Shown in pieces: positions 15,397 through 31,997 of a stretch of 64,000 bases of DNA. Below the pieces are notes generated by a model. That model had not been told where the DNA came from and searched no databases. It saw only the letters and a program-made list of their open reading frames with translations. Origin of the DNA: an uncultured Bacteroidota bacterium (GTDB taxonomy: Bacteria; Bacteroidota; Ignavibacteria; Ignavibacteriales; Ignavibacteriaceae); contig CAVYUP010000004.1 of NCBI GenBank assembly GCA_963771705.1, positions 126,656-190,655 of the forward strand, read 5' to 3'. The position numbers and the translations under genes were made by a program. Position 1 is the first letter of the stretch. The number at the start of each line of letters is the position of its first letter.

Positions 15397-15411
15397 TTTA
15401 ACCTCCTATTT

Positions 15412-16050: not shown

Positions 16051-16132
16051 AATTATCCTCTGATATTCAAGAGAAAGATGTCAATTTTATTAAAGATTAG
16101 GAATGATGATGAACACGGGGAGAGGGAAATTA

Positions 16133-16164
16133 CAAAAACGCAAAATTGCAAAAACGCAAAATTG
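16133..16164. repeat. Perfect 16-bp tandem direct repeat (caaaaacgcaaaattg x2) in the divergent promoter region upstream of hydF
   Basis: Read directly: positions 16133-16148 are identical to 16149-16164. Confidence 0.9.
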
Positions 16165-16355
16165 CAGAGGGGAGCGTGATACAATACATACCGGCTTTCT
16201 TATTTAAGAGAATTGGCTTTTCGAAAAGAGAAATTCACTATATAAAGATTCAACACTATTTTAAGCTCAATATTTAAGTTTTAGTGTAAAAATATGATTC
16301 TATTAATAGTTAATGGTGGAACGCTTTTTGACCTTTGTTAATTCAAGGAGAGATT

Positions 16356-17591
16356 ATGCGCGACGAAAAAGAGGAGAGACAAAAGAAAATAGTGTTTGCC
16401 GGCCGCCGGAACGTCGGGAAATCATCCCTTGTTAACGTTTTCCTGGGAAGGGATTTGAGTGTTGTAAGCGAAGCACCCGGGACAACAACCGACCCTGTGA
16501 AAAATACAATGGAACTTCTTCCATACGGATCTGTTCTTCTCATAGATACAGCGGGAATAGACGACGACGGAGAACTTGGAAGCAGAAGGATAAGCAGAAC
16601 CATCAAAGATATTTCAGGGGCGGATTTTGCAGTAGTAGTTATAGACGCAACGCGGACATTATCCACCGAAGAATATGAACTACTGAACTACCTTGATAAA
16701 ATATCGGTACCTTTCGTTATAGCTGCCAATAAAATCGAACTTGGAATTAATCCAGCCCTTCTTGAAGAAATAAAACAGCTTAGCGCCGTTCATTATGAAA
16801 TATCGTGTAAGCTGGGGGTAGGAATTGAATCGCTGAAGAGAAAAGTAATAAGGGCCCTTCCTCCGGATAATGACCCTGCTCTGATAGGTGACCTTATAAG
16901 CAAGGGGGATATGGTGGTGCTGGTTGTTCCGGACGACCTTGGAATTCCAAAGAACAGGCTGATGCTGCCTCATGTGCAGACAATAAGGGAAGCTCTCGAT
17001 AAAGATACTTTGGTGCTGACAGTAAAAGAAAAAGAACTAGCCGCAGCTTTAGTCTCCCTGAAATCCAAACCTGACCTAGTTATTTCCGACAGTCAGGCCA
17101 TAGTTCGTGCAGCTGAAAAAGTTTCGGCCGATACCAGGATTACCACATTTTCCATTCTAACGGCAAGATACAAGGGAGACCTTAAAGCGTTCATTAAAGG
17201 ATTAAAAAGAATCGATGAATTAAAAGACGGCGATAAAGTACTTATTGCCGAGGCTTGCTGTCATCATGACCCTGTGGATGATACAGCGAAGATTAAGATA
17301 CCGGAGTGGCTGTTAAATCACACGAAGAAAAAACTGGTAATCGATTTCTCACAGGGCTCGGAATTACCTGAAAATATCTCTCAATACAGACTTATCATTC
17401 ACTGTAATTCCTGTATGCTGTCGAGGAAGATGACACAGATTCGGCTAAATGAAGCAAGGCTAATGGATGTTCCTGTAGTTAATTACGGAGTAATTATGTC
17501 GTACATGTACGGGGCTGTTCCCAGAGCCCTCCGTCCTTTCAGTGAAGCAATCCGTGAATGGGAAAAAAATGTTCAAAAAACTTATGCATAG
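16356..17591 (+). CDS. hydF: [FeFe]-hydrogenase H-cluster maturation GTPase HydF
   Basis: P-loop GRRNVGKSSL, DTAG, NKIE GTPase motifs, plus C-terminal CCHHD ... HCNSC cluster-binding motifs. The ATG at 16356 is preceded by an aaggagag RBS; the ORF-track TTG at 16335 is unlikely. Confidence 0.85.
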   Translation: MRDEKEERQKKIVFAGRRNVGKSSLVNVFLGRDLSVVSEAPGTTTDPVKNTMELLPYGSVLLIDTAGIDDDGELGSRRISRTIKDISGADFAVVVIDATRTLSTEEYELLNYLDKISVPFVIAANKIELGINPALLEEIKQLSAVHYEISCKLGVGIESLKRKVIRALPPDNDPALIGDLISKGDMVVLVVPDDLGIPKNRLMLPHVQTIREALDKDTLVLTVKEKELAAALVSLKSKPDLVISDSQAIVRAAEKVSADTRITTFSILTARYKGDLKAFIKGLKRIDELKDGDKVLIAEACCHHDPVDDTAKIKIPEWLLNHTKKKLVIDFSQGSELPENISQYRLIIHCNSCMLSRKMTQIRLNEARLMDVPVVNYGVIMSYMYGAVPRALRPFSEAIREWEKNVQKTYA

Positions 17592-17602
17592 TCAAATTCA
17601 TT

Positions 17603-18091
17603 ATGGAAAATACAATTTTAGAAAAATATGTACCGGAAGACAAAAGCAGCCTTATACCAATTTTACAGGACATACAAGAGAAATATGGGTACCTTCCTGA
17701 ATATGAACTGCAGAAAGCTGCCGATTTTGTTGGTATACCTTTAAGTCGTGTTTACGGCGTAGCAACTTTTTATAATCAGTTCAGACTAATACCTCTCGGC
17801 GAGAATGTAATAAAAGTATGCCGGGGAACCGCCTGCCATGTAAAGAGTTCCGCGAACGTGCTTTATGCCATTGAATCCGCTCTGAAAATTAAAGCCGGAG
17901 AGACCACGAGGGATAAAAAATTCACCATTGAAGTTGTCAACTGCATCGGCGCCTGCAGCATTGCCCCTGTAATAACAATAAATAATGAATATTACGGAAG
18001 GCTTACAGTTAAAGATATTCCCGGTTTATTAAAGAAGTTCAACAAGCCGAAAGTAAAGAATGAGGAAGCTGTTCCGGAGGCGGCCTTATGA
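17603..18091 (+). CDS. NuoE/HydC-like [2Fe-2S] thioredoxin-fold subunit (hydrogenase set 1)
   Basis: Cys pattern CRGTAC ... CIGACSIAP. It lies 12 nt after hydF. The stop overlaps the next start (ATGA). Confidence 0.85.
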   Translation: MENTILEKYVPEDKSSLIPILQDIQEKYGYLPEYELQKAADFVGIPLSRVYGVATFYNQFRLIPLGENVIKVCRGTACHVKSSANVLYAIESALKIKAGETTRDKKFTIEVVNCIGACSIAPVITINNEYYGRLTVKDIPGLLKKFNKPKVKNEEAVPEAAL

Positions 18092-20074
18092 AAAACTTTA
18101 TGGAAAAATGCTGCGATAAATGCTGGCACACACCGGAAAAACCGTGCGATCTCTTTATAAACTGCTGTACGAAAGGTCCCCTCTGCCATGAATCTGACAG
18201 CTGCAATGAAAAGATAAAGGACCATAACGACGAATTATCGTTTAAGAAGCACGACGTTCCTTTAATATTTATTGGAATGGGGACGTGCGGTCTGGCCGCA
18301 GGAGCGAAGAAAAGTTGAGGAGGCAATTCAGAATGAATTGTCGAAATCAGGAATTAAAGCAAGGATAATTCCCACAGGATGCATCGGCTATTGCGCAAGG
18401 GAGGTCATTGTTGATATAAAACTTCCTGGCGAAGACAGGGTTTCATACTGCGAAATAACCACGAAGATCGTTCCGAAATTCATCCAGAGAACTATTGTGG
18501 AAAAAGGGGTATTCCATGAAAACCTGCTGGGAAAATTCGGAGAATCGGGAGGAGCAGCATCATCAATTAATGAAAATGATTTCTTTAAAAGGCAATTCAA
18601 GATTGTCCTTGAAAACTGCGGAATAATTGATCCTTCATCAATTGATTCATATATAAACGCGGGAGGATTCAGAGCGCTCGACAAGGTTCTCAGGTTAATG
18701 AAACCGGAGGAAGTTATCGATGAAGTTATACAAAGCGGACTAAGAGGAAGAGGGGGGGCAGGATTTTCGGCAGGGAAAAAATGGCAGCTGGCTCACAATC
18801 AGAAAGCCGATCAGAAATATATCATATGCAACGCGGATGAAGGGGATCCCGGCGCATTTATGGATCGTTCCGTTCTGGAAAGCGATCCTTTCAGAATAGT
18901 TGAAGGAATACTGATTGCCGCATACGCAATAGGAGCATCAAAAGGATATGTCTACTGCCGCGCCGAATATCCCCTGGCAATAGAGAGACTCGAAAACACG
19001 ATCTCCCGGTGCAGGGAGTATGGTCTGCTTGGCACAAATATTCTAAACAGCAGCTTTTCATTTGAACTTAAAATTAAAAAAGGGGCCGGCGCTTTTGTCT
19101 GCGGAGAAGAGACCGCCCTGATGGGATCCATCGAAGGAAAAAGAGGAATGCCGCGCCCCCGTCCCCCTTATCCTGCTGATGCGGGACTCTGGGGAAAACC
19201 AACTTCCATAAACAATGTTGAAACTTTCGCGAACGTTCCCGCAGTTATTTACCGAGGAGCTTCATGGTTTAATTCAATCGGTACCAAAACCAGCAAAGGA
19301 ACAAAAGTATTTGCGTTAAGCGGGAAAATAAAAAACACCGGACTGGTGGAAGTTCCTATGGGAATGACATTAAACGATGTTGTTTTCAAGATAGGCGGAG
19401 GGATTCCCGACAATAAAAAATTCAAAGCGATACAGATAGGAGGACCTTCCGGCGGCTGTCTTCCCGAGAGCGTGATAAACACTCCCGTTGATTATGAATC
19501 ATTGAAGCAGGTGGGTGCTATGATGGGATCGGGGGGATTCGTTGTTATGGACGAAGATACCTGTATGGTAGACGTAGCAAAATACTTCCTCACATTCATC
19601 CAAAATGAATCGTGCGGAAAATGCGTACCCTGCAGGGAAGGAACTAAAAGAATGCTGGAAATAATCGAACGCATTCCCACCAGCTACAAGAACACAAAAA
19701 ATAAATTAGATCAGCTTCAGCGCTTTAAAGGAATAGTTCACCTTCAGAGGCTTGCCGATGTAATCCGCGATACCTCTCTGTGCGGACTCGGGCAATCGGC
19801 GCCCAATCCTGTTCTGTCGGGCCTTCAGTATTTCAGGGAGGAATACGAAGAACATCTGTATGACAGAAAATGTTCAGCTGGAGTATGTAAAGAGCTACTT
19901 ACTTTCACGATTGACAATTCGATATGCAACGGATGCGGAGTATGCAGACTAAAATGTACGGTTGACGCCATAGCGGGAGAGAAGAACAAAGCTCATTACA
20001 TAGTTGAGGATAAATGTATTAAATGCGGAATGTGTTTTGAGGCCTGCAGGTTCAAGGCTATTTCGATTAACTGA
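18088..20074 (+). CDS. NuoF/HydB-like NADH/FMN subunit (hydrogenase set 1), with Cys-rich N-terminal extension, N-terminal [2Fe-2S] domain and C-terminal 2x[4Fe-4S] domain. The reading frame is interrupted by a +1 frameshift at the A4 run 18310-18313.
   Basis: ORF 18088-18318 ends ...IFIGMGTCGLAAGAKKS*. ORF 18272-20074 continues in the +1 frame with ..KVEEAIQNEL...TGCIGYCAREV. Together these form one thioredoxin-like [2Fe-2S] domain. Downstream motifs are GRGGAGF, ESCGKCVPCREG, and CNGCGVCRLKC / CIKCGMCFEAC. Automated pipelines would flag this as a pseudogene or frameshifted gene. Confidence 0.8.
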
Positions 20075-20094
20075 AAACTGAATTTGGAAAATGT

Positions 20095-21834
20095 ATGCTT
20101 TCTTTAACGATAAACAATATTAAAGTTAACGCAGAACCGGGAATGACAATACTTGATGCCGCCGATTCTGTAGGAATATCAATACCAACTTTATGTCATC
20201 TGAAAAATCTGATTCCTTCGGGCGCGTGCAGAATCTGTTCTGTTGAAGTAGAAGGACAGAGAGGCCTGGTTCCGGCATGTGCTTTCCCTATTTACGATGG
20301 AATGGTTGTTCAGTGTAATTCCCCAAGAGTAAGGCGCGCGAGGAAAACAATAGTTGAACTTCTCGTAGAAAATCATCCCGATGACTGTCTTATATGCGTA
20401 CGAAATAAAAACTGCGAACTGCAGGATCTTGCCGAACAATACGGATTGAGAGAACACCGTTATGCGGGAGAGAAGAAATGTCATGCTATCGATGTATCAA
20501 GTCCCTCAATTGAGAGAGATCCCGCGAAATGCATTCTATGCGGAAGATGCGTACGTGTATGTCATGAGGTCCAGAAAATAGGGGCGATTGACTTTACCAG
20601 TCGCGGATTTACCAGTATTGTTTCCACCCCCTTTAACAAAGGCCTGAACATAAGCGACTGTATTCTATGCGGTCAGTGCATCCTTGTTTGTCCCACCGCC
20701 GCTTTAAGAGAAAAAAGTTCGCTGAAAGAAGTTTCCAGCGCATTGCTGAATAAGAAGAAATATCCTGTAGTGCAGATAGCTCCGGCTGTACGTGCTACGC
20801 TTGGTGAATTATATAATTATCCTGCAGGAACCGATGTAACAGGACAGCTTGTTACAGCCTTAAGAAGGCTCGGATTCAAAAAAGTATTTGATACAAACTT
20901 TGCAGCCGATCTGACAATAATGGAGGAATCTGAAGAGCTTATAAACCGTATACAGAACAAAACGAAACCGCTGCCTATGTTTACAAGCTGCTGCCCGTCG
21001 TGGATTAAATACGCCGAGATGAACCACCCCGATTTACTTGATCACATATCAAGCTGCAAGTCGCCCCACGAGATGGAAGGAGCAGTAATTAAAACATATT
21101 ACGCTGAAAAAACAGGCATTGATCCGCAGGATATTTTTGTTGTTTCGATTATGCCGTGCACAGTTAAGAAATATGAGGCCAAACGCGCTGAACTTTCTGA
21201 AAATTCACTGCATGATGTAGACGCTGTTTTAACAACGCGTGAACTGGCAAGATTCTTTAAGATTGCGGGGATAAAGTTCGAAGACCTGCCGCAGGATAAC
21301 TTTGACAATCCCCTGGGAGAATCGACAGGCGCCGCGGCGATATTCGGAGCAAGCGGAGGCGTTATGGAAGCAGCGCTGCGAACCGCTTATTTCAAACTAA
21401 CCGGGAAAGAATCGGAGAAAATTAAATATAAGCCGGTAAAGGGTCAGGCCGGGATAAGAGAAGCTTCATTCTGCATTAACAGTATTACCCTCAACACGGC
21501 GGTAGTGAACGGGATTGGAAACATCGGACCCATACTGCAGGAAATAAGAGAAAACAGGAGCAAGTATCATTTCATTGAGGTGATGACTTGTCACGGCGGC
21601 TGTGTAAACGGAGGCGGTCAGCCGATAAACAATGAACCGGAAAAGATAATAAAGAGAATGAAAGCGCTTTATCGTCTTGATGAAAACGCAGCCCATCACT
21701 GCTCGCATGAAAATGAATTTGTTAAACAGCTCTATGAAGAATTTTTTAATGAACCTGACAACCATAAGGTCCATACCATTCTTCACACAAAATATTCAGG
21801 CAGGCAGGAAGTTCCTGCGGAAAATATAAAATGA
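20095..21834 (+). CDS. hydA: [FeFe]-hydrogenase catalytic subunit HydA (M3-type; canonical H-cluster motifs)
   Basis: N-terminal [2Fe-2S] (CHL..GACRIC..C), HxxxCxxC...C cluster, 2x CxxCxxCxxxCP. L1 is FTSCCPSW (20983-21003), L2 is MPCTVKKYEA, L3 is EVMTCHGGCVNGGGQP. Confidence 0.92.
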   Translation: MLSLTINNIKVNAEPGMTILDAADSVGISIPTLCHLKNLIPSGACRICSVEVEGQRGLVPACAFPIYDGMVVQCNSPRVRRARKTIVELLVENHPDDCLICVRNKNCELQDLAEQYGLREHRYAGEKKCHAIDVSSPSIERDPAKCILCGRCVRVCHEVQKIGAIDFTSRGFTSIVSTPFNKGLNISDCILCGQCILVCPTAALREKSSLKEVSSALLNKKKYPVVQIAPAVRATLGELYNYPAGTDVTGQLVTALRRLGFKKVFDTNFAADLTIMEESEELINRIQNKTKPLPMFTSCCPSWIKYAEMNHPDLLDHISSCKSPHEMEGAVIKTYYAEKTGIDPQDIFVVSIMPCTVKKYEAKRAELSENSLHDVDAVLTTRELARFFKIAGIKFEDLPQDNFDNPLGESTGAAAIFGASGGVMEAALRTAYFKLTGKESEKIKYKPVKGQAGIREASFCINSITLNTAVVNGIGNIGPILQEIRENRSKYHFIEVMTCHGGCVNGGGQPINNEPEKIIKRMKALYRLDENAAHHCSHENEFVKQLYEEFFNEPDNHKVHTILHTKYSGRQEVPAENIK

Positions 21835-23849
21835 ACAACGGAATTGTCAGCACAATATTAGATAAATGCAAGAGATGCTACTCGTGCATACGCGAATGCC
21901 CGGCAAAGGCTATAAGTGTTGTTAACGGCCAGGCAGCTGTAATGAGCGAACGATGCATTGCATGCGGTCATTGCGTAAAAGTATGCTCACAGAACGCAAA
22001 GAGGATTAAATCTGATATTGAACTGGTATTAAATACGTTGATACCCGCCGGAAATACAGCCGCTATCATAGCCCCCTCATTTGCCGCGTCGTTTCCTGAC
22101 AACTCTGAAAAAGTACCTTCAGCTTTGAGAAAGCTGGGTTTCTCGAAAGTAATAGAGACCGCCTTCGGGGCAGATCTTATAAGCGATTATTATTTCGAAG
22201 AATTCCAGAAAGAAGACAGCAGAACAGTAATAAGTTCCGCCTGTCCCGCCGTCATTAATTATATAGAAAAGTATCATGGAGAACTGGTGCCCAATCTTGC
22301 CAAAGTGGTTTCCCCTATGATAGCCGTTGGAAAATACTTACGGGCTTTCAGCGGAGCGGACCAGAAGATAGTATTTATTGGTCCCTGCGTAGCCAAGAAG
22401 CAGGAAGCGGAAGCCGACGAAGTTGCAGGAATAATTGATGCTGTACTAACGTTTACCGAGCTGAAAGAAATGCTGGATATAGCAGGAATAAAGGCGGATG
22501 ATCTTCCGGAATCTGAATTTGATCCACCCCATGCTTACCTGGGTAAATCTTTTCCATTAGCGGGAGGGCTGCTTAAGACGGCGAACATTTCGGGTGATAT
22601 TTTAGCCGAAAACATTATAACCGTTGAAGGTAAATCCAAACTCCTTGAGCTGATTGATGAGATATCGGGGAACCGGATCAACGCGAGATTTGCAGATGTA
22701 CTTTTCTGTGAAGGGTGTATAAGCGGACCGGCAATAGACAGCAATCTTAATTACTATTCCCGCAGGGAAAAAGTAATTAAATATATAGAAAAGAAAATCC
22801 ACACCGTAGACAAGCAGGAGTGGAAGAGCAACATCTACAACGCCAGGAATATCGATTTAAGCAGGACATTTTCCGTTAAAAACCAGAGAAGGCCTTATCC
22901 CACCGAAGAAAAGATAAAAGAAATACTTGCCGAGATAAATAAATACACGGTAAAAGATGAATTGAACTGCGGGGCCTGCGGATACAACAGCTGCAGGGAT
23001 TTTGCTGTTGCCATAGCGAAAGGATTAGCCGAAAAGGAAATGTGTCTTCCGCTTCTTATTGATCAGCTTGCCAAAGCTTACGATGATCTGCAGAGTACGC
23101 AGGATCAGCTTCGCACGGCCGAGAAGCTGGCATCAATAGGACAGCTTGCCGCCGGTGTTGCGCACGAGATAAATAATCCCCTTGGTACCATCATGATATA
23201 CGCTTCAATTTTGAAAAAAGAACTGAAAGTAAAAGCTGATGGGGCTCAGTCCTCTGAGGATCTTAATCTTATCATCGAAGAAGCAAACAGGTGCAAGAAC
23301 ATTGTAGGGAACCTGCTGAACTTTGCCCGTCAGGGGAAATTAAATCTCAGTGTAATAAACGTGAGAAGTTTCCTGAAGAACATTCTGAAAAACATAGGAA
23401 TAAATCCCCTTTACAAAGATTATGAAATAAACTGCGGTTTGGTCTCTGATTCATTAGAGATTGAAGGAGATGTTGATCAGCTAAAGCAGGTTTTCTTAAA
23501 TCTGCTCAACAACGCGCTGGAATCAATGGAAGAGAGCAGCAGGAAAATACTGACAATCGGCATTAAAGAAGACGAAGAATACCTGATAATAAAGATAGAA
23601 GACACCGGGTGCGGAATAAGAAAAGAGAATTTCGGAAAAATATTCACACCATTCTTCACTACGAAGAAAATGGGTCGTGGAACGGGTCTTGGACTTGCAA
23701 TAACCTACGGCATCGTGAAAATGCACAAAGGCTCCATTGAATTCCAGAGTGATGAAGGAGAGGGGACAGCATTTACGATAAAACTTCACAAAAAATTAAA
23801 AAAAGTAAGTACTGAAACTATTGAGGAAAATAATGAATACGTCTGTTAA
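21831..23849 (+). CDS. Sensory [FeFe]-hydrogenase-like (HydS/group C-type) domain fused to an Fe-S domain and a histidine kinase
   Basis: 2x[4Fe-4S] motifs (CKRCYSCIRECP, CIACGHCVKVC). H-domain with degenerate motifs SSACPAV (A137 at 22239-22241), GPCVAKKQE, FCEGCISGP. CGACGYNSC...C Fe-S domain. H-box AAGVAHEINNPL. HATPase N/G boxes (LLNNALES, DTGCGI, GTGLGL). The start overlaps the hydA stop (ATGA). Confidence 0.85.
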   Translation: MNNGIVSTILDKCKRCYSCIRECPAKAISVVNGQAAVMSERCIACGHCVKVCSQNAKRIKSDIELVLNTLIPAGNTAAIIAPSFAASFPDNSEKVPSALRKLGFSKVIETAFGADLISDYYFEEFQKEDSRTVISSACPAVINYIEKYHGELVPNLAKVVSPMIAVGKYLRAFSGADQKIVFIGPCVAKKQEAEADEVAGIIDAVLTFTELKEMLDIAGIKADDLPESEFDPPHAYLGKSFPLAGGLLKTANISGDILAENIITVEGKSKLLELIDEISGNRINARFADVLFCEGCISGPAIDSNLNYYSRREKVIKYIEKKIHTVDKQEWKSNIYNARNIDLSRTFSVKNQRRPYPTEEKIKEILAEINKYTVKDELNCGACGYNSCRDFAVAIAKGLAEKEMCLPLLIDQLAKAYDDLQSTQDQLRTAEKLASIGQLAAGVAHEINNPLGTIMIYASILKKELKVKADGAQSSEDLNLIIEEANRCKNIVGNLLNFARQGKLNLSVINVRSFLKNILKNIGINPLYKDYEINCGLVSDSLEIEGDVDQLKQVFLNLLNNALESMEESSRKILTIGIKEDEEYLIIKIEDTGCGIRKENFGKIFTPFFTTKKMGRGTGLGLAITYGIVKMHKGSIEFQSDEGEGTAFTIKLHKKLKKVSTETIEENNEYVC

Positions 23850-24243
23850 AAAAATATTGCTTGTAGACGACGATATCGACCTGCTAGAACAAAACAAACT
23901 GATGCTTGAATCGAAAGGTTATGAAGTTGTTACCGCAGAGAGCGGAAAAGAAGGATGGGAACTTTTCAAAAAAGTAAAACCGGATGGTGCTATAATCGAC
24001 TTAATAATGGAAGAACATGATTCGGGCTTTATTCTCAGCTACAGGATAAAAAAAGACAAGTACGGAAAGACAATTCCCGTATTTGTTCTTACATCCGCGA
24101 CGTACATAACTGGATTTAAATTCAGCGCGGCAACCGATGAGGAAAAAGAATGGATATGCTGCGACGAAATAATCAACAAGCCGGTAGTTATAGATGAACT
24201 TGCGCAGAAACTGGAAGAATATTTCAGTGTGAAAGTATCTTAA
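23833..24243 (+). CDS. Stand-alone response-regulator receiver (CheY-like, no output domain)
   Basis: LLVDDD, IIDLIM (phospho-Asp), LTSAT, NKPV. The ATG at 23833 overlaps the kinase 3' end by 17 nt. Confidence 0.85.
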   Translation: MNTSVKKILLVDDDIDLLEQNKLMLESKGYEVVTAESGKEGWELFKKVKPDGAIIDLIMEEHDSGFILSYRIKKDKYGKTIPVFVLTSATYITGFKFSAATDEEKEWICCDEIINKPVVIDELAQKLEEYFSVKVS

Positions 24244-25766
24244 TGGAAGAAAAAATTCAGCCGAAGGTTTTAGTAGTTGATGACGAAAAAGGACTGCGGC
24301 TCGGGACAAAAAGACTGCTCGAAGCCGAGGGCTACATTGTGAGCTCCGCGGAGAACGGTACTGAAGGGATAAGGCTGGGAACCTCGGAAGAATTTGATCT
24401 AGCGGTTATTGATATGCGGATGCCCGACAAGGACGGGATAAAAGTGCTGAAAGAAATATTGCAGGCATACCCGAATACTATTTGTTTTATCGCTACCGCA
24501 TATGCCAGTTACGAAACGGCAATTGAAGCGACAAAAACAGGAGCGTTTGGTTATATACTGAAACCATTCACTCCCGAAGAACTGCTTTCACGGCTCAAGG
24601 AAGGATATGCAAAGAGGCTCCTGCTGCTGGAAACAGAAAAATGGAAAAGCGAAAGAGAAGAAAGATTACTTGAGGTCGCGTTTGAAAAAACCAGACTAAA
24701 TACCATTGTAAATTCGATAAGCGACGGTGTCTTTGTAGTAAACAAGAAGGGTGAAACAGTTCTTTTCAATCCCGCTCTCACCAGGTACATCAACGTAAAT
24801 CAAATAGAAATCGAAAAGAATACGCTGGAAAAAATCCATCCGAAAATAAAAACTCTTATTAATAAAATCCTTCGTGCCGAAAACCCGGAAAACAAATCGT
24901 ATTCAGATCAGATTGAATTAAAAGAGAGAGGTGAATTATTTATTGAGGCAACATCTTCGGCCGTACCTCATCCTGACGGATCACTTGCCGGGGTAGTTGT
25001 TGTTATAAAAAACATCACCGAACTGAAGAGGATAGAACACCTGAAATCGCAGTTTGTATCGATGGTTTCGCATGAGCTGAAAGCCCCTCTGGCCGCCGTA
25101 TACGGTTATCTGAAACTGCTTACTGACGATGCTTTTGACACCAGCAGAGAGCAGAGGATATCATATATGAAACGTTCGATGGTGAGACTCGATTCATTAT
25201 TAAAAATGGTGAATGACCTCCTTGATATCAGCAGGATGGAATTAAAAACTGTTCAGAGAGAAATAAAACAGGTTGATATTTCTGAAGTTCTTGATTCAAT
25301 ATTGGATTTATTCAGCGCGGAAATACAAAAGAAGAACCTTTCGGTTAAAAAGGATTATGATATAAGCTGCGAGCATTTTTTTGCGGCTAAAGAAGAATTA
25401 GTAAGGCTATTCACAAACCTTATCAGCAACGCAGTAAAATATAACCGTGAACAAGGTTCCATTCATATTACGGCAGAAACAACGGAAAATCATCTGATAA
25501 TAGAAATCCATGACACAGGGATTGGGCTTAAAGAAAACGAGAAAGAAAAGCTCTTTCAGGAATTCTACCGCGCAAAAAATGAAAAAACAAAAGATATAAG
25601 CGGTACGGGGCTTGGTTTATCGATAGTAAAAAAGATCGTTGAATCTTACTCAGGTAAAATAGAAGTAGAATCTGAATTCGGTAAAGGAACCTCATTCAAA
25701 ATATCATTTCCTCTGACAGTGAAGAAAAAAGTTCTAAACGAAGAGAGTAATATACTCATTCAATAA
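24243..25766 (+). CDS. Hybrid REC-PAS-histidine kinase
   Basis: N-terminal receiver (VVDDEKG, VIDMRMPDKDG, KPF), a PAS-like segment (LNTIVNSISDGVFVVNKKGE), H-box MVSHELKAPL, and HATPase (LISNAVKYN, DTGIGL, GTGLGL). The start overlaps the previous stop by 1 nt. Confidence 0.88.
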   Translation: MEEKIQPKVLVVDDEKGLRLGTKRLLEAEGYIVSSAENGTEGIRLGTSEEFDLAVIDMRMPDKDGIKVLKEILQAYPNTICFIATAYASYETAIEATKTGAFGYILKPFTPEELLSRLKEGYAKRLLLLETEKWKSEREERLLEVAFEKTRLNTIVNSISDGVFVVNKKGETVLFNPALTRYINVNQIEIEKNTLEKIHPKIKTLINKILRAENPENKSYSDQIELKERGELFIEATSSAVPHPDGSLAGVVVVIKNITELKRIEHLKSQFVSMVSHELKAPLAAVYGYLKLLTDDAFDTSREQRISYMKRSMVRLDSLLKMVNDLLDISRMELKTVQREIKQVDISEVLDSILDLFSAEIQKKNLSVKKDYDISCEHFFAAKEELVRLFTNLISNAVKYNREQGSIHITAETTENHLIIEIHDTGIGLKENEKEKLFQEFYRAKNEKTKDISGTGLGLSIVKKIVESYSGKIEVESEFGKGTSFKISFPLTVKKKVLNEESNILIQ

Positions 25767-25788
25767 AATAAACTAACGGGACGAATAA

Positions 25789-26169
25789 ATGATTAAAATA
25801 GTAATAATAGACGATGACCCCGACATACTGGATGTAAGTAAAATAGTTCTGTCCTCTAAAGGGTACAGCGTATTTACGGCTCAGAATCCTGATGACGGCT
25901 ATAAATTAATAAAAGATCAGAAACCTGATCTTATTATTCTCGATGTAATGATGAATGAACCGGACGACGGATTTTTCCTTGCGCAGAAATTACGAAGGGA
26001 AAAAATCGACACTCCGATCATAATGTATACATCTGTTTCAAAGACCCTGGGGTTTGAATTCGGCAAGAGCGAAATGGTTCCTGTGGACGAATACGTAGAA
26101 AAACCGATATCACCCGATGAACTAATCGCAAAAGTTGAAAAACTTCTGCCCCAGAAAGTAAAGGAGTAG
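25789..26169 (+). CDS. Stand-alone response-regulator receiver (paralog of 23833-24243, no output domain)
   Basis: IIDDD, LIILDVMM, MYTSVS, EKPI. It shares the unusual TS..x..GF.F insertion with the first REC. Confidence 0.85.
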   Translation: MIKIVIIDDDPDILDVSKIVLSSKGYSVFTAQNPDDGYKLIKDQKPDLIILDVMMNEPDDGFFLAQKLRREKIDTPIIMYTSVSKTLGFEFGKSEMVPVDEYVEKPISPDELIAKVEKLLPQKVKE

Positions 26170-26172
26170 CAT

Positions 26173-26646
26173 ATGCTGGTTTACGAAAAAAACAAATTAT
26201 CGGAGGATGTAGAATCCTTTGTAGAAAAATACGGATCAGACCGATCCGCGCTACTGCCAATTCTGCAGGCGATCCAGAGAAAATATCATCATATATCGGG
26301 ATTCGCGCAGCAGGAGGTTGCAAGACTAATGAATATTCACCCTGTAGAAGTGAACAGTATAATATCCTTTTACTCCTTTCTGCATGAAGACCCCCAGGGG
26401 AGAAATATAGTAAGGTTATGTAAAACAATCTCCTGCGATATGGCGGGAAAGACAGAAGTTGAAAAAGCTGTTCAAAGAGAACTAGGCATTTCATTCGGCG
26501 AAACTACTAAAGATAACCGTATTACACTGGAACATACCAATTGTCTCGGTATGTGCGATGAAGGTCCTGCTATGCTGGTAAACGAGAAAGTTTACACTCA
26601 GCTTGATCCTGAAACTGCGGTAAAAATACTGAGTGAAATAAAGTAG
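26173..26646 (+). CDS. NuoE/HydC-like [2Fe-2S] subunit (hydrogenase set 2)
   Basis: Cys pattern CKTISC ... CLGMCDEGP. It starts 3 nt after the REC gene. Confidence 0.85.
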   Translation: MLVYEKNKLSEDVESFVEKYGSDRSALLPILQAIQRKYHHISGFAQQEVARLMNIHPVEVNSIISFYSFLHEDPQGRNIVRLCKTISCDMAGKTEVEKAVQRELGISFGETTKDNRITLEHTNCLGMCDEGPAMLVNEKVYTQLDPETAVKILSEIK

Positions 26647-26655
26647 GAGAATGAA

Positions 26656-27876
26656 ATGAACACATCATACGCAACAAAAAAGCGCACAGGTCCCGTACTT
26701 TTTTCCGAATACACAAAAGGGGAAGGAATAAGGCATCTGGCCGAAAAATCGCGCGAAGATATTCTATTTGAATTAAAAACCTCCGGACTGAAAGGAAGAG
26801 GCGGGGCAGGATTTCCGACCTCCACGAAGTGGATGCTGACAGCCGCGGCTATTTCCGAGAAGAAATATCTTGTATGCAATGCCGATGAAGGCGAACCGGG
26901 CACATTCAAAGACCGTGTTCTGCTGCTGGAGTACCCAGAGCTGGTATTTGACGGAATGGTTATAGGAGGATACACGACCGGTGCTCAGACAGGGATAGTA
27001 TACCTTCGGGGAGAGTATGAATATATGCTTGAACACCTTGAAGAGTACCTTATGAAGATGCGTGAGGATAATCTGCTCGGTAATAACATTATAGGTAAAA
27101 AAGATTTCAATTTTGATATTAGTATAAGACTTGGCTCAGGAGCATACGTCTGCGGTGAGGAAACCGCACTTATAGAATCCCTTCAGGGGAACAGAGGAGA
27201 GCCGCGCAACAGGCCACCTTACCCGGTGAATACCGGTTATATGGGATACCCCACATCAGTAAACAATGTTGAAACACTCGCCTCGGCCGCGCACATAGCG
27301 GTAAAAGGAGGGGAGTGGTTCAGGCATTTCGGCACCGACAAATCCACAGGATCCAAGTTATTTTCAGTTTCCGGGGACTGCGGCAGGCCGGGTGTTTACG
27401 AACTTCCCTGGGGAAGCTCAATTAAGCAGCTGCTTAAAATAGTTGAGGCCAAAGATACCAAAGCCGTGCAGGTAGGCGGCGCTTCGGGGATATGCATTCC
27501 GAAGACACAGTTCGATCGTATCCTAGCTTACGAGGATGCCGCAACAGGCGGATCTATCATCGTCTTTAATGAGACGCGTGATATGCTTAAGGTGCTAAAG
27601 AATTTCCTCGAATTCTTTGTGGAAGAATCGTGCGGACAATGTACACCCTGCAGGATAGGCAACGTTAAACTGCTTGAGGGTGTTAAGCAGATTGAAAAAG
27701 GAGAATTCACTTTTTCATATATCAACACATTGAAGGAACTCGGGAAGACAATGCAGGTCGCTTCAAAATGTGGACTTGGTCAGTCATCGCCGAATTCTTT
27801 TATTTCAATACTGGAAAACTTTAAGGATGAAATATTCCACACAAACGGAAAGGTGAGAAGAAATGGAAAAGAATAA
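26656..27876 (+). CDS. Minimal NuoF-like NADH/FMN subunit (hydrogenase set 2), lacking the N-terminal [2Fe-2S] and C-terminal ferredoxin-like domains of set 1
   Basis: GRGGAGFP, NADEGEPGTF, ESCGQCTPCRIG, KCGLGQS. The protein ends about 30 aa after the last motif, and no CxxCxxCxxxC motifs are present. Confidence 0.85.
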   Translation: MNTSYATKKRTGPVLFSEYTKGEGIRHLAEKSREDILFELKTSGLKGRGGAGFPTSTKWMLTAAAISEKKYLVCNADEGEPGTFKDRVLLLEYPELVFDGMVIGGYTTGAQTGIVYLRGEYEYMLEHLEEYLMKMREDNLLGNNIIGKKDFNFDISIRLGSGAYVCGEETALIESLQGNRGEPRNRPPYPVNTGYMGYPTSVNNVETLASAAHIAVKGGEWFRHFGTDKSTGSKLFSVSGDCGRPGVYELPWGSSIKQLLKIVEAKDTKAVQVGGASGICIPKTQFDRILAYEDAATGGSIIVFNETRDMLKVLKNFLEFFVEESCGQCTPCRIGNVKLLEGVKQIEKGEFTFSYINTLKELGKTMQVASKCGLGQSSPNSFISILENFKDEIFHTNGKVRRNGKE

Positions 27877-29743
27877 TAACAGCAGGTCGCCGGAAAGCCA
27901 GAGACCCTTTGTAGTTGAAAAAGCACCAGGCGAAAAAGAAATGATCGGTGGAATGGTTTCAGTTGAAATAAACGAGAAAAAGATCTCGATACCTCTCGGC
28001 ACAACCATACTTGAAGCATGCAGGATGAACCAGATCCACATTCCTTCCCTATGCTACCATGAAGACCTCTGCATAGCGGGAGTATGCCGTGTATGTGTAG
28101 TAGAGGTTGAGGGGATGAAGACATTACAGACAGCGTGTTCATTCCCGGTAACCACTCCTATAAAAATTCACACATCAACACCTCACGTAAGAAAAGCAAG
28201 GCGTCATATAATCGACCTTCTGCTAAGTGAGCATTACGGCGAGTGCTATACCTGTTCGAGGAACCAGAACTGCGAGCTTCAGGAACTGGCAAAGGAATAC
28301 GGAGTTGACGGATTCACTTTCGGGCACATTGAAGAACCAAAATATCCTGTAGACAGATCATCGTCATCTGTTATAAGAAATATGAACAAGTGTGTCCTTT
28401 GCAAGAGGTGTATAAGGACGTGTATCGACCTTCAGGAAGTAGGCGTGCTGGAAGCCCTTAACAGGGGGCACGAAACGAAAGTTGGTACTTTCCTGGACAA
28501 ACCGCTGGCAGATGTAATTTGCATAAACTGCGGTCAGTGCATTAACCGTTGTCCCACCGGCGCACTAAAGGCAAACGACCCATCTGATGAAATATGGAGA
28601 GCAATCGATGATCCTTCTAAACACGTAGTTATACAAACCGCGCCTTCTCCGCGGGCAGCAATAGGTGAGGAATTCGGTATAGAGCCGGGTCACTCTTTTA
28701 CCGGCGAGCTCAACACAGCATTAAGAAGGATCGGGTTTAACAGAGTTTTCGACACAAACTTTACCGCAGACCTTACCATTATGGAAGAAGGCACAGAGCT
28801 GCTCAACAGGCTTAAAAAAGCTCTTGTTAATAAAGACGAGTCGATTAAGCTGCCGCAGTTCACCTCCTGCTCGCCAGGCTGGGTAAAGTTCATAGAGCAC
28901 TTCTACCCTGAATACCTTGATTATCTTTCAACGGCAAAATCTCCCCAGCAGATGTTCGGGGCGCTCATAAAAACCTTTTACGCTAAGGAAGCAAAAGTAG
29001 ATCCCGCTGATATAGTTACCGTTGCGCTTATGCCCTGTTCGGCCAAAAAATTTGAATGCAACAGGCCGGAAATGAATGATTCAGGATTCAAAGACGTTGA
29101 TTATGGTTTAACCACCCGCGAAATGGCTCAGATGATTAAAGAAGCGGGAATTTATCTTCCGGAAATGCCGAAGTCGCATTTTGACGATCCCTTCGGGGAC
29201 GCATCGGGTGCGGGACTGATATTCGGAGCGACCGGAGGAGTAATGGAAGCCGCTTTAAGGACGGTATACGAGCTGGTTACGGGGAGACCTGTACCGTTTA
29301 AGAATCTTGATATCACTCCCTGCCGCGGTTTCGACGGTGTTAAGCAGGCATCCGTTAAACTTGAGAACTGTGTTAACGAGTATAAATTCCTTGAAGGAAT
29401 AGAATTAAAGTTCATCGTTGCACACGGAACAGCCAATGCAAAGAAGGTAATGGAAATGCTGCGGCGGGGTGAACTAAAGGACGTTCACTTTGTAGAGATA
29501 ATGGCTTGTCCCGGCGGATGCCTTGGAGGTGGAGGGCAGCCTATACCGACATCTTCCGAAATAAGGCAGAAGCGGGCGCAGGCAATTTATGAAGAAGACG
29601 CATCATTACCCGTCAGGAAATCCCATGAAAACGAGCATGTTCAGTACATTTATGAAAACTTCCTGACCGAGGGTCCCTGCAGCGAACTATCGCATAAACT
29701 GCTGCATACCCATTACACAAAAAGAGGCAAATTCATTTCATAA
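27863..29743 (+). CDS. hydA: [FeFe]-hydrogenase catalytic subunit paralog (HydA2) with a non-canonical L1 motif
   Basis: NuoG-like N-terminus ([2Fe-2S], HxxxCxxC..C, 2x4Fe-4S). L1 is FTSCSPGW (28859-28882), L2 is MPCSAKKFEC, L3 is EIMACPGGCLGGGGQP. An alternative start at M27 (27941) is possible. Confidence 0.88.
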   Translation: MEKNNNSRSPESQRPFVVEKAPGEKEMIGGMVSVEINEKKISIPLGTTILEACRMNQIHIPSLCYHEDLCIAGVCRVCVVEVEGMKTLQTACSFPVTTPIKIHTSTPHVRKARRHIIDLLLSEHYGECYTCSRNQNCELQELAKEYGVDGFTFGHIEEPKYPVDRSSSSVIRNMNKCVLCKRCIRTCIDLQEVGVLEALNRGHETKVGTFLDKPLADVICINCGQCINRCPTGALKANDPSDEIWRAIDDPSKHVVIQTAPSPRAAIGEEFGIEPGHSFTGELNTALRRIGFNRVFDTNFTADLTIMEEGTELLNRLKKALVNKDESIKLPQFTSCSPGWVKFIEHFYPEYLDYLSTAKSPQQMFGALIKTFYAKEAKVDPADIVTVALMPCSAKKFECNRPEMNDSGFKDVDYGLTTREMAQMIKEAGIYLPEMPKSHFDDPFGDASGAGLIFGATGGVMEAALRTVYELVTGRPVPFKNLDITPCRGFDGVKQASVKLENCVNEYKFLEGIELKFIVAHGTANAKKVMEMLRRGELKDVHFVEIMACPGGCLGGGGQPIPTSSEIRQKRAQAIYEEDASLPVRKSHENEHVQYIYENFLTEGPCSELSHKLLHTHYTKRGKFIS

Positions 29744-29753
29744 TTAGTAATTT

Positions 29754-29795
29754 GAGGCTGCCGCCAAAGTTAATTCCGCGGCGGCCTCATTTTAT
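29754..29795 (+). terminator. Rho-independent terminator after hydA2
   Basis: gaggctgccgcc (29754-29765) pairs with gcggcggcctc (29778-29788), giving 10 bp with one bulge, followed by atttta. Confidence 0.65.
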
Positions 29796-29805
29796 ATGGA
29801 GTAAA

Positions 29806-31194: not shown

Positions 31195-31205
31195 AGAAGG
31201 CATTT

Positions 31206-31397
31206 ATGGCGACATTTATCCTTTGGCTAATTCTTTTAATCGTATGCTGGCCGCTGGCGCTGGCCGCTTTGATCCTTTACCCCTTTCTCTGGCTGATACT
31301 ATTACCCTTCAGGCTTATAGGAATAAGCGTAGACGGCATTCTTAAACTCATCTCATCGCTGATAAAGCTGCCGGCAAGAGTGATGGCGAAGCGCTAA
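31206..31397 (+). CDS. Small (63 aa) two-TM hydrophobic protein, family not recognised
   Basis: aaagaagg RBS 6-8 nt upstream. Very hydrophobic (WLILLIVCWPLALAALILYPFLWLILLPF). Lies directly after the kinase gene. Confidence 0.45.
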   Translation: MATFILWLILLIVCWPLALAALILYPFLWLILLPFRLIGISVDGILKLISSLIKLPARVMAKR

Positions 31398-31864: not shown

Positions 31865-31961
31865 GGTTCAAGTAAAAAGTAAAAGTTAAAAGTAAGGAAG
31901 GAAGATAAGGGAAAATGGAAAAAGTAAAAAGGAAAAAGTAACGCAATACGCTAAGTACGTT

Positions 31962-31997
31962 AATTCGTACTATTCGTACGATCCGCACTATTCGTCA
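31962..31997. repeat. Degenerate 9-bp tandem repeat (consensus tattcgtac, 4 units)
   Basis: Read directly: aattcgtac|tattcgtac|gatccgcac|tattcgtca. Confidence 0.7.

What the first reader, a model, noticed from the sequence alone, without database searches (positions are those of the whole stretch)
16356..29795. One about 13.4-kb co-directional gene string: HydF, two different NuoE/NuoF/HydA [FeFe]-hydrogenases, and a four-gene sensor/phosphorelay module wedged between them
Seen in sequence: eleven ORFs lie on the + strand with gaps of 23 nt or less, or with overlaps. There are ATGA overlaps at 18088 and 21831, a 17-nt overlap at 23833, a 1-nt overlap at 24243 and a 14-nt overlap at 27863. The only convincing terminator I see follows hydA2 (29754-29795). 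Established: NuoE/NuoF/HydA trimers are the HydABC-type NAD(H)/ferredoxin-linked hydrogenases, and HydF is an H-cluster maturase. Inference: the signalling genes sit physically and probably transcriptionally between two paralogous hydrogenases. This suggests a built-in H2-responsive circuit that discriminates between the two enzymes, for example uptake versus evolution, or bifurcating versus non-bifurcating. I am not aware of any experimentally described circuit of this kind.
Basis: partly seen in the sequence, partly recalled or inferred. Interest (0 to 1): 0.8.

Follow-up and report, generated by a model that had tools for sequence, protein, structure and literature searches.

The report
Hydrogen-sensor kinase cluster between two hydrogenases
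An Ignavibacteriota gene cluster places a hydrogenase-like sensor fused to a histidine kinase, plus four more signalling proteins, between a bifurcating-type and a non-bifurcating-type NADH-linked [FeFe]-hydrogenase; the layout is conserved in dozens of species and offers a testable system for how bacteria sense H2.

Summary
HydF, two NuoE/NuoF/HydA sets and four signalling genes lie head to tail at 16356-29743, with exactly the reported overlaps, and a strong hairpin follows hydA2.

Two corrections:
- hydB1 carries a one-base insertion (about 18310-18313) that splits it in this assembly.
- A fifth signalling gene, a membrane kinase at 29806-31194, belongs to the cluster.

The first signalling gene is a HydS-type sensory [FeFe]-hydrogenase domain fused directly to a histidine kinase. 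It keeps all H-cluster cysteines, replaces the proton-relay Cys with Ala, and has the C-terminal Cx2Cx4Cx16C motif. HydB1 meets every published bifurcating criterion; HydB2 meets the non-bifurcating ones.

The arrangement recurs in 80 Ignavibacteriota species. It is modular: [hydC1B1A1][hydS-HK + REC1][REC-PAS-HK] and [REC2-hydC2B2A2][membrane HK].

No output domain, Hpt domain or DNA-binding regulator is encoded. Each unit in relatives, and hydF here, is preceded by a sigma-54-like -24/-12 motif and a TTCT-N8-AGAA palindrome. This points to an unidentified enhancer-binding activator.

H2-responsive control is well supported. Discrimination between the two enzymes is not. The parts are known; the combination is a new variant.

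The parts
16197..16212 (.). Palindrome TTCTTATTTAAGAGAA (TTCT-N8-AGAA). Candidate upstream activator site, 120 nt before the -24 motif.
   Evidence: The exact pattern occurs at fixed distances upstream of 45 of 88 promoter-like sites in relatives. Background is 0.0135 per 140 bp.
16317..16331 (+). Sigma-54-like -24/-12 motif TGGAACGCTTTTTGA, 24 nt before the hydF ATG.
   Evidence: The TGGAAC-N5-TTTG motif lies upstream of hydF, or of the aspartase-like gene before it, in about 25 loci. The related TGGCAY-N5-WATGM lies upstream of hydC1 in 56 loci. In the window alone it is not significant.
16356..17591 (+). hydF, the H-cluster maturation GTPase.
   Evidence: Pfam HydF_dimer, HydF_tetramer and MMR_HSR1. 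TIGR03918 scores 458 bits against a cutoff of 326.
17603..18091 (+). hydC1, a NuoE-type [2Fe-2S] subunit of hydrogenase 1.
   Evidence: PF01257, E = 1.7e-49. Conserved upstream of hydB1 in 62 loci, with a median gap of -1 nt.
18088..20074 (+). hydB1, a long NuoF-type subunit of the bifurcating type. It has an 8-Cys N-terminal extension, an N-terminal [2Fe-2S] domain, the FMN/NADH core and a C-terminal 2x[4Fe-4S] domain. A 1-base insertion at 18310-18313 interrupts it.
   Evidence: Frameshift. Bifurcating markers PGAFMDR, GAGAFVCGEE and GGPSG are present here and in 62-64 of 64 orthologues.
20095..21834 (+). hydA1, catalytic subunit with canonical TSCCP / MPCTVKK / CHGGC motifs.
   Evidence: Pfam. 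NF040763 scores 833 bits against a cutoff of 765. Motifs.
21831..23849 (+). hydS-HK, a sensor-kinase fusion. Domain order: 2x[4Fe-4S], sensory-type H-domain (SSACP, GPCVAKK, FCEGC), Cx2Cx4Cx16C cluster (22968-23045), then a HisKA/HATPase kinase (His445 at 23163).
   Evidence: The kinase core is closest to ZraS/AtoS. Thousands of homologues share the architecture.
23833..24243 (+). REC1, a stand-alone receiver translationally coupled to hydS-HK.
   Evidence: PF00072. DD, D, T and K residues are present. The gap to hydS-HK has a median of -12 nt and is at most 30 nt in 78 of 79 species.
24243..25766 (+). REC-PAS-HisKA-HATPase kinase (HK2), a receiver-controlled second kinase.
   Evidence: Pfam. 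Conserved after REC1 in 75 loci.
25789..26169 (+). REC2, a stand-alone receiver paralogous to REC1 and the first gene of the hydrogenase-2 unit.
   Evidence: Clusters with REC1. The gap to hydC2 has a median of 2 nt in 47 of 47 loci. REC2 heads the displaced modules in L034, L058, L063, L068 and L071.
26173..26646 (+). hydC2, a NuoE-type subunit of hydrogenase 2.
   Evidence: PF01257, E = 8e-47.
26656..27876 (+). hydB2, a short NuoF-type subunit of the non-bifurcating type. It has no N-terminal [2Fe-2S] domain and no C-terminal ferredoxin domain.
   Evidence: Pfam finds only Complex1_51K and NADH_4Fe-4S. It carries PGTFKDR, GAYVCGEE and GGASG.
27863..29743 (+). hydA2, catalytic subunit with TSCSP (second Cys of the L1 motif replaced by Ser, 28862-28876).
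   Evidence: Pfam. NF040763 scores 814 bits. FTSCSPG in 36 of 36 orthologues.
29754..29795 (+). Intrinsic-terminator-like hairpin followed by AUUUUAU.
   Evidence: -27.4 kcal/mol, z = -5.5. A hairpin with a T tail follows hydA2 in 17 of 34 species, against 0 of 43 at the HK2-REC2 junction.
29806..31194 (+). Membrane histidine kinase (HK3) with a PilS-like 6-TM domain. It follows hydA2 across species.
   Evidence: Pfam 6TM_PilS, HisKA and HATPase_c. Present after hydA2 in about 36 loci with a median gap of 128 nt.

Best explanation
This is an H2-responsive regulon for two NADH-linked [FeFe]-hydrogenases of an Ignavibacteriota bacterium.

**Shown from sequence**
- Hydrogenase 1 (hydC1B1A1) has the subunit architecture and marker residues of electron-bifurcating HydABC.
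- Hydrogenase 2 (hydC2B2A2) has those of the non-bifurcating NADH-only type.
- Between them, HydS-HK joins a sensory-type H-cluster domain and a C-terminal [4Fe-4S] motif directly to a complete histidine-kinase transmitter.

**Inferred mechanism**
1. H2 binds and is oxidised at the slow, proton-relay-deficient H-cluster. This sets the redox state of the C-terminal cluster, 40 residues from the phospho-accepting His, and so changes autokinase or phosphatase activity.
2. The phosphoryl group goes to REC1, whose gene is translationally coupled to hydS-HK, and probably also to the receiver of the REC-PAS-kinase.
3. That second kinase integrates a second signal through its PAS domain. Its DHp helix resembles that of the membrane kinase after hydA2, so both may act on REC2.
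4. The final output is not encoded here.

**Likely output.** hydF in this window, and hydF, hydC1, REC2 and hydS in relatives, are preceded by a sigma-54-like -24/-12 motif. A TTCT-N8-AGAA palindrome lies about 85-130 nt upstream of it. The most likely output is therefore an enhancer-binding activator encoded elsewhere that switches on the whole set.

**Physiological logic** (established thermodynamics; PMC7311640). A non-bifurcating enzyme can make H2 only below roughly 60 Pa, whereas a bifurcating one works to about 1000 Pa.
For: - Domains.
- All H-cluster ligands and Lys358 are kept. Cys299 becomes Ala/Ser and Met353 becomes Gly. Cx2Cx4Cx16C is present in 81 of 81 orthologues.
- Kinase H, N, G1, F and G2 boxes are invariant.
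- HydB1 and HydB2 markers.
- Synteny in 80 species.
- Tight coupling of hydS-HK with REC1 and of REC2 with hydC2.
- Terminator after hydA2.
- The promoter-like motif lies upstream of hydC1 in 56 of about 62 loci, and also upstream of hydF, REC2 and hydS. The operator-like palindrome sits at fixed spacing from it.
- Sigma-54 activators exist in the phylum.
- M. roseus proteins MROS_2480-2482, 2487 and 2488 were detected only under fermentation (PMC5492636).
- Literature on the sensory role: PMC8163306, PMC10055695, PMC10838669.
Against: - No group C [FeFe]-hydrogenase has been shown to signal.
- No DNA-binding or other output domain lies in the cluster, in the 64-kb window, or conserved nearby.
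- The -12 element is atypical: ATGA or TTTG instead of TTGC.
- The motif is not significant in the window taken alone.
- Kinase-receiver pairings rest only on gene adjacency and helix similarity.
- The AlphaFold model is too poor in the linker to support the coupling step.
- If the hydB1 frameshift is real, hydrogenase 1 is defective in this genome.
Confidence: 0.6

Rival explanations
1. HydS-HK senses the cellular redox state rather than H2. Its N-terminal 2x[4Fe-4S] domain and C-terminal cluster would read ferredoxin or NADH-derived electrons, and the H-domain would be a scaffold or an electron sink.
For: The protein carries three accessory clusters besides the H-cluster. Characterised HydS enzymes turn over slowly and their physiological role is described as unclear (PMC10055695). 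The second kinase has a PAS domain that could also read redox.
Against: Every residue that binds the H-cluster is conserved in 80 species, while only the proton-relay positions are changed. The maturase gene hydF lies in the same string. A pure redox sensor would not need a [2Fe] site.
Confidence: 0.15
2. Control is mainly post-translational. The stand-alone receivers REC1 and REC2 bind the hydrogenase complexes, with REC2 acting as a phosphorylation-controlled subunit of the non-bifurcating enzyme. They would switch activity or electron routing rather than transcription.
For: Neither receiver has an output domain. REC2 is translationally coupled to hydC2 in 47 of 47 species and travels with that operon. 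REC1 and REC2 share a conserved insertion before the KP motif, on the usual output face. Both enzyme units carry the same promoter type, so any discrimination would have to occur after transcription.
Against: No receiver-regulated hydrogenase is known. Gene coupling also fits simple co-expression. The conserved promoter and operator pair shows that transcriptional control exists as well.
Confidence: 0.15
3. The signalling genes are neighbours by history only and control something else, for example motility through CheY-like receivers.
For: The receivers are CheY-like single domains. No regulator of hyd genes is encoded locally.
Against: The order is kept across 80 species of several families. 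The first kinase contains a hydrogenase domain. REC2 heads the hydrogenase-2 operon.
Confidence: 0.05

Closest known systems
[quoted passage not shown]
   Same: N-terminal 2x[4Fe-4S] domain. H-domain with all cluster ligands, Cys299 replaced and Met353 changed to Gly. C-terminal Cx2Cx4Cx16C cluster. Encoded beside a group A HydABC (PMC8163306, PMC10055695).
   Different: There is no PAS domain after the C-terminal cluster. A complete HisKA/HATPase transmitter follows directly, so the output chemistry is defined. Met497 is Leu, as in group D TamHydS, rather than Ser.
Kinase-domain-bearing group C1/C3 hydrogenases noted in genome surveys (Hydrogenedentota BfuT, Ca. Lernaella; HydDB C1 'histidine kinase-linked')
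   Same: A hydrogenase-like sensor with a histidine-kinase domain, adjacent to group A3 genes (PMC11406978, PMC9324843, PMC5037454).
   Different: Those reports are one-line annotations. They describe no downstream receivers, second kinase, paired non-bifurcating enzyme or promoter architecture. I could not run HydDB, so the subgroup label here is not assigned.
Ruminococcus albus HydS / HydA2 / HydABC
   Same: A putative H2 sensor is encoded with one of two alternative [FeFe]-hydrogenases, and their use depends on H2 partial pressure (summary of Zheng 2014 in PMC10838669).
   Different: R. albus HydS has a PAS domain and no kinase. The alternative enzyme there is ferredoxin-only, not NADH-only. 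The R. albus evidence is transcript correlation.
[NiFe] regulatory hydrogenase systems (HoxBC-HoxJ-HoxA of Cupriavidus necator; HupUV-HupT-HupR). From my own knowledge plus PMC5665086 and PMC5037454.
   Same: An H2-sensing hydrogenase controls a histidine kinase, which controls hydrogenase genes. In C. necator the regulator is NtrC-type and the promoters are sigma-54-dependent (own knowledge).
   Different: The metal centre is unrelated. Sensor and kinase are separate proteins there and a single polypeptide here. The DNA-binding regulator is encoded in the cluster there and missing here.
Non-bifurcating NADH-dependent [FeFe]-hydrogenases (Syntrophomonas wolfei Hyd1ABC, Syntrophus aciditrophicus HydAB)
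   Same: HydB2 lacks the extra Fe-S domains and has Thr/Lys, Tyr and non-GGPSG at the diagnostic positions. Ignavibacterium is listed among carriers in PMC7311640.
   Different: No enzyme from this phylum has been assayed. HydA2 carries TSCSP.
Two [FeFe]-hydrogenase clusters described in Ignavibacterium album (IALB_0255-0257, IALB_0529-0531) and Melioribacter roseus (Mros2480-2488)
   Same: These are the same two enzymes, including the long and short HydB and the Cys-to-Ser change (PMC3362086, PMC3534657).
   Different: Those papers do not mention the sensor-kinase, the receivers or the kinases lying between and after the enzyme genes.

Membership tests
Sensory (group C, HydS-type) [FeFe]-hydrogenase | H-domain with the four H-cluster cysteines and Lys358 | tested here: met
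   C138, C186, C293, C296 and K189 align to CpI C300, C355, C499, C503 and K358. They are invariant in 43 aligned homologues.
Sensory (group C, HydS-type) [FeFe]-hydrogenase | Proton-relay Cys299 replaced and Met353 replaced | tested here: met
   SSACP and GPCVAKK. The best CpI match in the PDB is the C299A variant 6gly.
Sensory (group C, HydS-type) [FeFe]-hydrogenase | C-terminal Cx2Cx4Cx16C cluster motif | tested here: met
   Residues 380-405. Present in 81 of 81 orthologues. Pfam PF04060.
Sensory (group C, HydS-type) [FeFe]-hydrogenase | PAS domain after the C-terminal cluster (M2f definition) | tested here: not met
   There is no PAS hit. The HisKA H-box lies 40 residues after the last Cys.
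Sensory (group C, HydS-type) [FeFe]-hydrogenase | H2 binding and H2-dependent signalling | not testable with these tools
   Needs biochemistry.
Electron-bifurcating HydABC (Bfu type): gene set 1 | HydB with an N-terminal [2Fe-2S] domain, a C-terminal 2x[4Fe-4S] domain, Ala232/Met234, Phe367 and GGPSG | tested here: met
   Fer4 domains. The repaired N-terminus aligns to solved Bfu B subunits. PGAFMDR, GAGAFVCGEE and GGPSG are present. Intactness in this genome is uncertain because of the frameshift.
Electron-bifurcating HydABC (Bfu type): gene set 2 | The same HydB features | tested here: not met
   HydB2 is 406 aa, with no extra Fe-S domains, and carries PGTFKDR, GAYVCGEE and GGASG.
Non-bifurcating NADH-dependent [FeFe]-hydrogenase: gene set 2 | Thr/Ser232, Lys/Ser/Ala234, Tyr367, no GGPSG and no extra clusters in HydB (Losey 2020) | tested here: met
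   Enzyme activity was not tested.
Two-component system | Kinase H, N, G1, F and G2 boxes; receiver acidic pocket, phospho-Asp, Thr/Ser and Lys | tested here: met
Multistep His-Asp-His-Asp phosphorelay | An Hpt or Spo0B-like phosphotransfer protein and a terminal regulator with an output domain | tested here: not met
   No Hpt and no output domain was found in any of the five signalling proteins or their neighbours.
Sigma-54-dependent regulon | -24 GG and -12 GC elements one helical turn apart, an upstream activator site, and a cognate enhancer-binding protein | tested here: inconclusive
   TGGCAY/TGGAAC plus TG at the correct spacing is strongly position-conserved, and a palindrome lies 85-130 nt upstream. 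However, the -12 base is often not C. No activator is linked. The nearby NtrC-type regulator in a few genomes has its own kinase partner.

The most novel reading that the evidence does not exclude
The H2-sensing kinase network acts on the enzymes themselves. Phosphorylated REC2 (and REC1) would dock on the non-bifurcating (and bifurcating) hydrogenase complexes as regulatory subunits. That would give a post-translational, H2-dependent switch between bifurcating and NADH-only H2 metabolism, alongside common sigma-54-type transcription of both.
Probability: 0.15. Interest if true: 0.8.

Novelty: new variant of a known kind. Interest (0 to 1): 0.55.

Why it matters
Whether group C/D [FeFe]-hydrogenases really sense H2, and how the signal leaves the protein, is an open question that the enzymology papers state outright (PMC8163306, PMC10055695).

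This cluster makes the question testable for several reasons:
- The sensor is fused to a standard kinase, so the read-out is simple: autophosphorylation and phosphotransfer.
- Candidate partners lie next to it.
- The controlled genes pair a bifurcating-type and a non-bifurcating-type enzyme, whose useful ranges of H2 pressure differ about 20-fold.
- The same cluster exists in cultured Ignavibacterium album and Melioribacter roseus.

The conserved promoter and palindrome give a handle for finding the missing regulator. Ignavibacteriota are common fermenters in sediments, soils and bioreactors, so the circuit bears on how H2 is released to, or withheld from, partner organisms.

Tried and rejected
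- **Generic sigma-70 and terminator scan.** No enrichment (28 promoter-like sites against 32 expected), and it missed the real hairpin.
- **Rfam.** Nothing found in 15000-32500.
- **Strict sigma-54 consensus** with obligatory GC. It found only a few hydF sites. The relaxed pattern was adopted only because of its positional conservation across species. In the window alone it is at chance level.
- **AlphaFold2 model of HydS-HK.** Mean pLDDT 66.5, and below 50 in the ferredoxin domain and in the linker/DHp region. I did not use it for the mechanism and ran no fold search.
- **Invariant 40-residue spacing from the last Cys to the His.** I considered this as evidence for rigid coupling. I downgraded it because the whole sensor half is free of indels in this family.
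- **Classical phosphorelay.** Rejected: no Hpt domain.
- **Nearby NtrC-type regulator as the missing output.** It lies within 3 kb in four loci. In a complete genome it is 13-15 kb away and paired with its own PAS kinase, so it remains only a weak candidate.
- **Source record of the window.** The exact protein is not locatable and carries no name.
- **Reported HydC2-HydB2 fusion in M. roseus.** Not seen in the M. roseus MAG locus L069.
- **Kinase-receiver pairing from specificity residues.** Suggestive only.

Full report
**What is in the sequence**

On the + strand, 16356-29743 holds, in order:

| Gene | Coordinates |
|---|---|
| hydF | 16356-17591 |
| hydC1 (NuoE-type) | 17603-18091 |
| hydB1 (NuoF-type) | 18088-20074 |
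| hydA1 | 20095-21834 |
| H-domain/kinase fusion (hydS-HK) | 21831-23849 |
| REC1, stand-alone receiver | 23833-24243 |
| REC-PAS-kinase | 24243-25766 |
| REC2, second stand-alone receiver | 25789-26169 |
| hydC2 | 26173-26646 |
| hydB2 | 26656-27876 |
| hydA2 | 27863-29743 |

The hairpin at 29754-29795 folds at -27.4 kcal/mol with z = -5.5 and is followed by AUUUUAU.

Two things were missed.

- hydB1 is broken in this sequence. A 76-codon ORF ending in ...GMGTCGLAAGAKKS* is followed, in another frame, by the rest of the gene. Alignment with three relatives shows one extra base in GAAGAAAAG at 18310-18313. Removing it gives a 661-aa protein, which is the median length of 64 orthologues. That protein aligns without interruption across the site to the N-terminal [2Fe-2S] domain of solved Bfu-type B subunits. 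An independent annotation of a complete relative genome also calls one 661-aa gene. A homopolymer error is the simplest reading, but a real mutation cannot be excluded.
- After the terminator comes a fifth signalling gene, a 6-TM PilS-like histidine kinase (29806-31194).

**Organism and conservation**

The fusion protein has thousands of homologues with the same architecture. The named ones come from Ignavibacteria, Ignavibacteriales and Ignavibacteriaceae.

A scan of one genome per species returned 80 loci, including Ignavibacterium album, Melioribacter roseus and Stygiobacter. tblastn and ORF clustering give two modules.

- Module 1 is hydC1-hydB1-hydA1-hydS-HK-REC1-REC-PAS-kinase. It is present in essentially every locus with enough flank.
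- Module 2 is REC2-hydC2-hydB2-hydA2-membrane kinase. It is directly adjacent in about half of the loci and displaced by 1-7 kb in L034, L058, L063 and L068. It is absent within 10 kb in many Ignavibacterium species, which fits I. album carrying IALB_0255-0257 far from IALB_0529-0531 (PMC3362086).

Junction statistics across species:

| Junction | Median gap (nt) | Note |
|---|---|---|
| hydS-HK to REC1 | -12 | at most 30 nt in 78 of 79 |
| REC2 to hydC2 | 2 | at most 30 nt in 47 of 47 |
| hydA2 to membrane kinase | 128 | never at most 30 nt |
| hydF to hydC1 | 210 | |
| hydA1 to hydS-HK | 67 | |

Terminator-like hairpins with a T tail follow hydA2 in 17 of 34 species. They occur at 0 of 43 junctions between the REC-PAS-kinase and REC2.

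The compact, gap-free form seen in the window is shared with its closest relatives L001 and L032. It is one variant of a modular cluster.

**The sensor**

Residues 1-60 hold two [4Fe-4S] motifs and residues 76-300 are an [FeFe]-hydrogenase H-domain.

Aligned to Clostridium pasteurianum CpI, the four H-cluster cysteines and Lys358 are present. TSCCP has become SSACP (Cys299 to Ala), MPC has become GPC (Met353 to Gly) and Met497 is Leu. The best CpI hit in the PDB is the engineered C299A variant. These changes are conserved in 80 species. They are the hallmarks of the putative sensory enzymes (PMC8163306).

The C-terminal Cx2Cx4Cx16C motif is exact in 81 of 81 orthologues. Where T. maritima HydS has a PAS domain, this protein continues 40 residues later into the H-box (HEINNP). 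All kinase boxes are invariant. The transmitter is closest to ZraS, AtoS and LvrB.

No NCBIfam model reaches its cutoff for this protein.

**The two enzymes**

Both HydA proteins pass the NCBIfam model for NADH-dependent group A6 [FeFe]-hydrogenases. HydA1 has canonical motifs. HydA2 has TSCSP in all 36 orthologues, as already noted for I. album (PMC3362086).

The published criteria separating bifurcating from non-bifurcating B subunits (PMC7311640) give a clean split:

| Feature | HydB1 | HydB2 |
|---|---|---|
| Length | 661 aa | 406 aa |
| Extra Fe-S domains | yes | none |
| NADH-site marker | PGAFMDR | PGTFKDR |
| FMN-site marker | GAGAFVCGEE | GAYVCGEE |
| SLBB marker | GGPSG | GGASG |
| Assignment | bifurcating | non-bifurcating |

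**The signalling network**

REC1 and REC2 are paralogues. Both have intact phospho-acceptor residues and share an insertion before the KP motif. Neither has an output domain.

The second kinase has an N-terminal receiver and a PAS domain. Its DHp helix (HELKxPxAAV) resembles that of the membrane kinase and differs from HydS-HK (HEINNPLG).

There is no Hpt domain. No DNA-binding regulator lies in the cluster, elsewhere in the 64-kb window, or conserved in the 80 loci. This is therefore a multi-kinase, multi-receiver network, not a classical phosphorelay.

**Promoters**

Comparison of upstream regions uncovered a motif with -24/-12 geometry.

- TGGCAY-N5-WATGM lies 27-40 nt before the hydC1 start in 56 of about 62 loci.
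- The same motif lies before REC2 wherever module 2 is displaced, and before hydS-HK in two species that lack hydrogenase 1 at this site.
- TGGAAC-N5-TTTG lies before hydF, or before the aspartase-like gene that precedes hydF.
- Of about 103 non-coding hits in 1.4 Mb, 83 are at these positions.
- A palindrome, TTCT-N8-AGAA, lies at fixed distance upstream: -84 to -88 for hydC1, REC2 and hydS, and -97 to -131 for hydF. The exact pattern is present at 45 of 88 sites, against a background of 0.0135 per 140 bp.

In the window the pair is at 16197-16212 and 16317-16331, ahead of hydF. No second copy precedes hydC1 or REC2.

This layout is typical of sigma-54 promoters with an enhancer-binding activator. 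Such activators exist in the phylum. The -12 element is atypical, and the activator is not identified. An NtrC-type regulator lies within 3 kb in four loci, but in a complete genome it is 13-15 kb away and coupled to its own PAS kinase.

**Interpretation**

The evidence supports an H2-responsive (or at least H-cluster-dependent) kinase that heads a network controlling the hydrogenase regulon.

The physiological rationale is sound. Non-bifurcating enzymes can evolve H2 only below about 60 Pa and bifurcating ones up to about 1000 Pa (PMC7311640).

The evidence does not show that the circuit chooses between the two enzymes. Both units carry the same promoter and operator type. Both enzymes were detected, under fermentation only, in M. 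roseus (PMC5492636). Any discrimination would have to come from REC2 or the membrane kinase, possibly after translation. I rate that as a minority but interesting possibility.

**Relation to what is known**

- Sensory [FeFe]-hydrogenases beside group A enzymes are known as a class (PMC5037454, PMC8163306).
- Kinase-domain versions have been noted in Hydrogenedentota and Ca. Lernaella (PMC11406978, PMC9324843).
- The two Ignavibacterium and Melioribacter enzymes were described in 2012-2013 without the signalling genes (PMC3362086, PMC3534657).
- R. albus offers a transcript-level analogue (PMC10838669).
- The [NiFe] HoxBC-HoxJ-HoxA system is the functional analogue with separate proteins.

I found no description of the following in the searchable literature: the conserved combination of a fused sensor-kinase, two orphan receivers, a receiver-controlled kinase and a membrane kinase; its placement around a bifurcating and non-bifurcating enzyme pair; and the shared promoter and palindrome.

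I file it as a new variant of a known kind, of moderate to good interest because it is directly testable in cultured strains.

Noticed in passing
window 18300-18320 (hydB1): A one-base insertion in GAAGAAAAG, relative to three relatives, splits hydB1 into 76-aa and 600-aa ORFs. It is probably a homopolymer sequencing error, but it could be a real inactivating mutation of the bifurcating enzyme.
   Followed up: yes
window 18088-18252 (first about 55 codons of hydB1): An N-terminal extension with eight cysteines (CCx2Cx8Cx5CCx5Cx5C) is conserved in Ignavibacteriota HydB1. It has no counterpart in solved Bfu-type B subunits and no Pfam hit. It may be an extra metal site.
   Followed up: partly
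window 28862-28876 (hydA2): The L1 motif is TSCSP instead of TSCCP, so the Cys that ligates the [4Fe-4S] part of the H-cluster is Ser. This holds in 36 of 36 orthologues and was previously remarked for I. album IALB_0257.
   Followed up: partly
loci L002, L003, L017, L019, L021, L027, L030, L034, L037, L048 and others, upstream of hydF: An aspartate ammonia-lyase/fumarase-like gene sits directly before hydF, with hydG and hydE divergent beside it. It carries the same TGGAAC-N5-TTTG motif. This suggests a role in H-cluster maturation.
   Followed up: no
intergenic gaps of many loci (for example hydA1/hydS-HK and REC1/REC-PAS-kinase in L033-L060): Short repeated palindromic elements (GGAATGACA...TGTCATTCC, GAAGCAATC) fill the variable gaps. 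They look like genome-wide miniature repeats rather than regulators.
   Followed up: no
L034, L039, L043, L044, L047, L050, L051, L057, L058, L061, L064, L068, L082: A 1200-aa peptidase C25 (gingipain-like) gene with a type IX secretion tail is inserted right after the REC-PAS-kinase. In several loci it lies between the two hydrogenase modules.
   Followed up: no
L023, L030, L045, L071 (downstream of the membrane kinase); L081 in CP065001.1: An NtrC-family response regulator (REC + sigma-54 activation domain + HTH_8) lies near the cluster in a few species. In a complete genome it is 13-15 kb away and overlaps its own PAS kinase gene.
   Followed up: partly
window 33553-36663 (- strand) and 34000-36000: A 1036-aa Type ISP restriction-modification enzyme lies in the lowest-GC stretch of the window (0.35 against about 0.42). 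It may be an acquired island.
   Followed up: no
window 3980-6175 (-) and 8900-9874 (-): A TPR-repeat histidine kinase and a SpoIIE-type phosphatase lie upstream of the cluster. They are not conserved with it in relatives.
   Followed up: no
window 23678-23691: A second match to the relaxed -24/-12 pattern (TGGAACGGGTCTTG) lies inside the 3' part of hydS-HK, 155 nt before REC1. It has no palindrome upstream and no conservation, so it is probably chance.
   Followed up: partly
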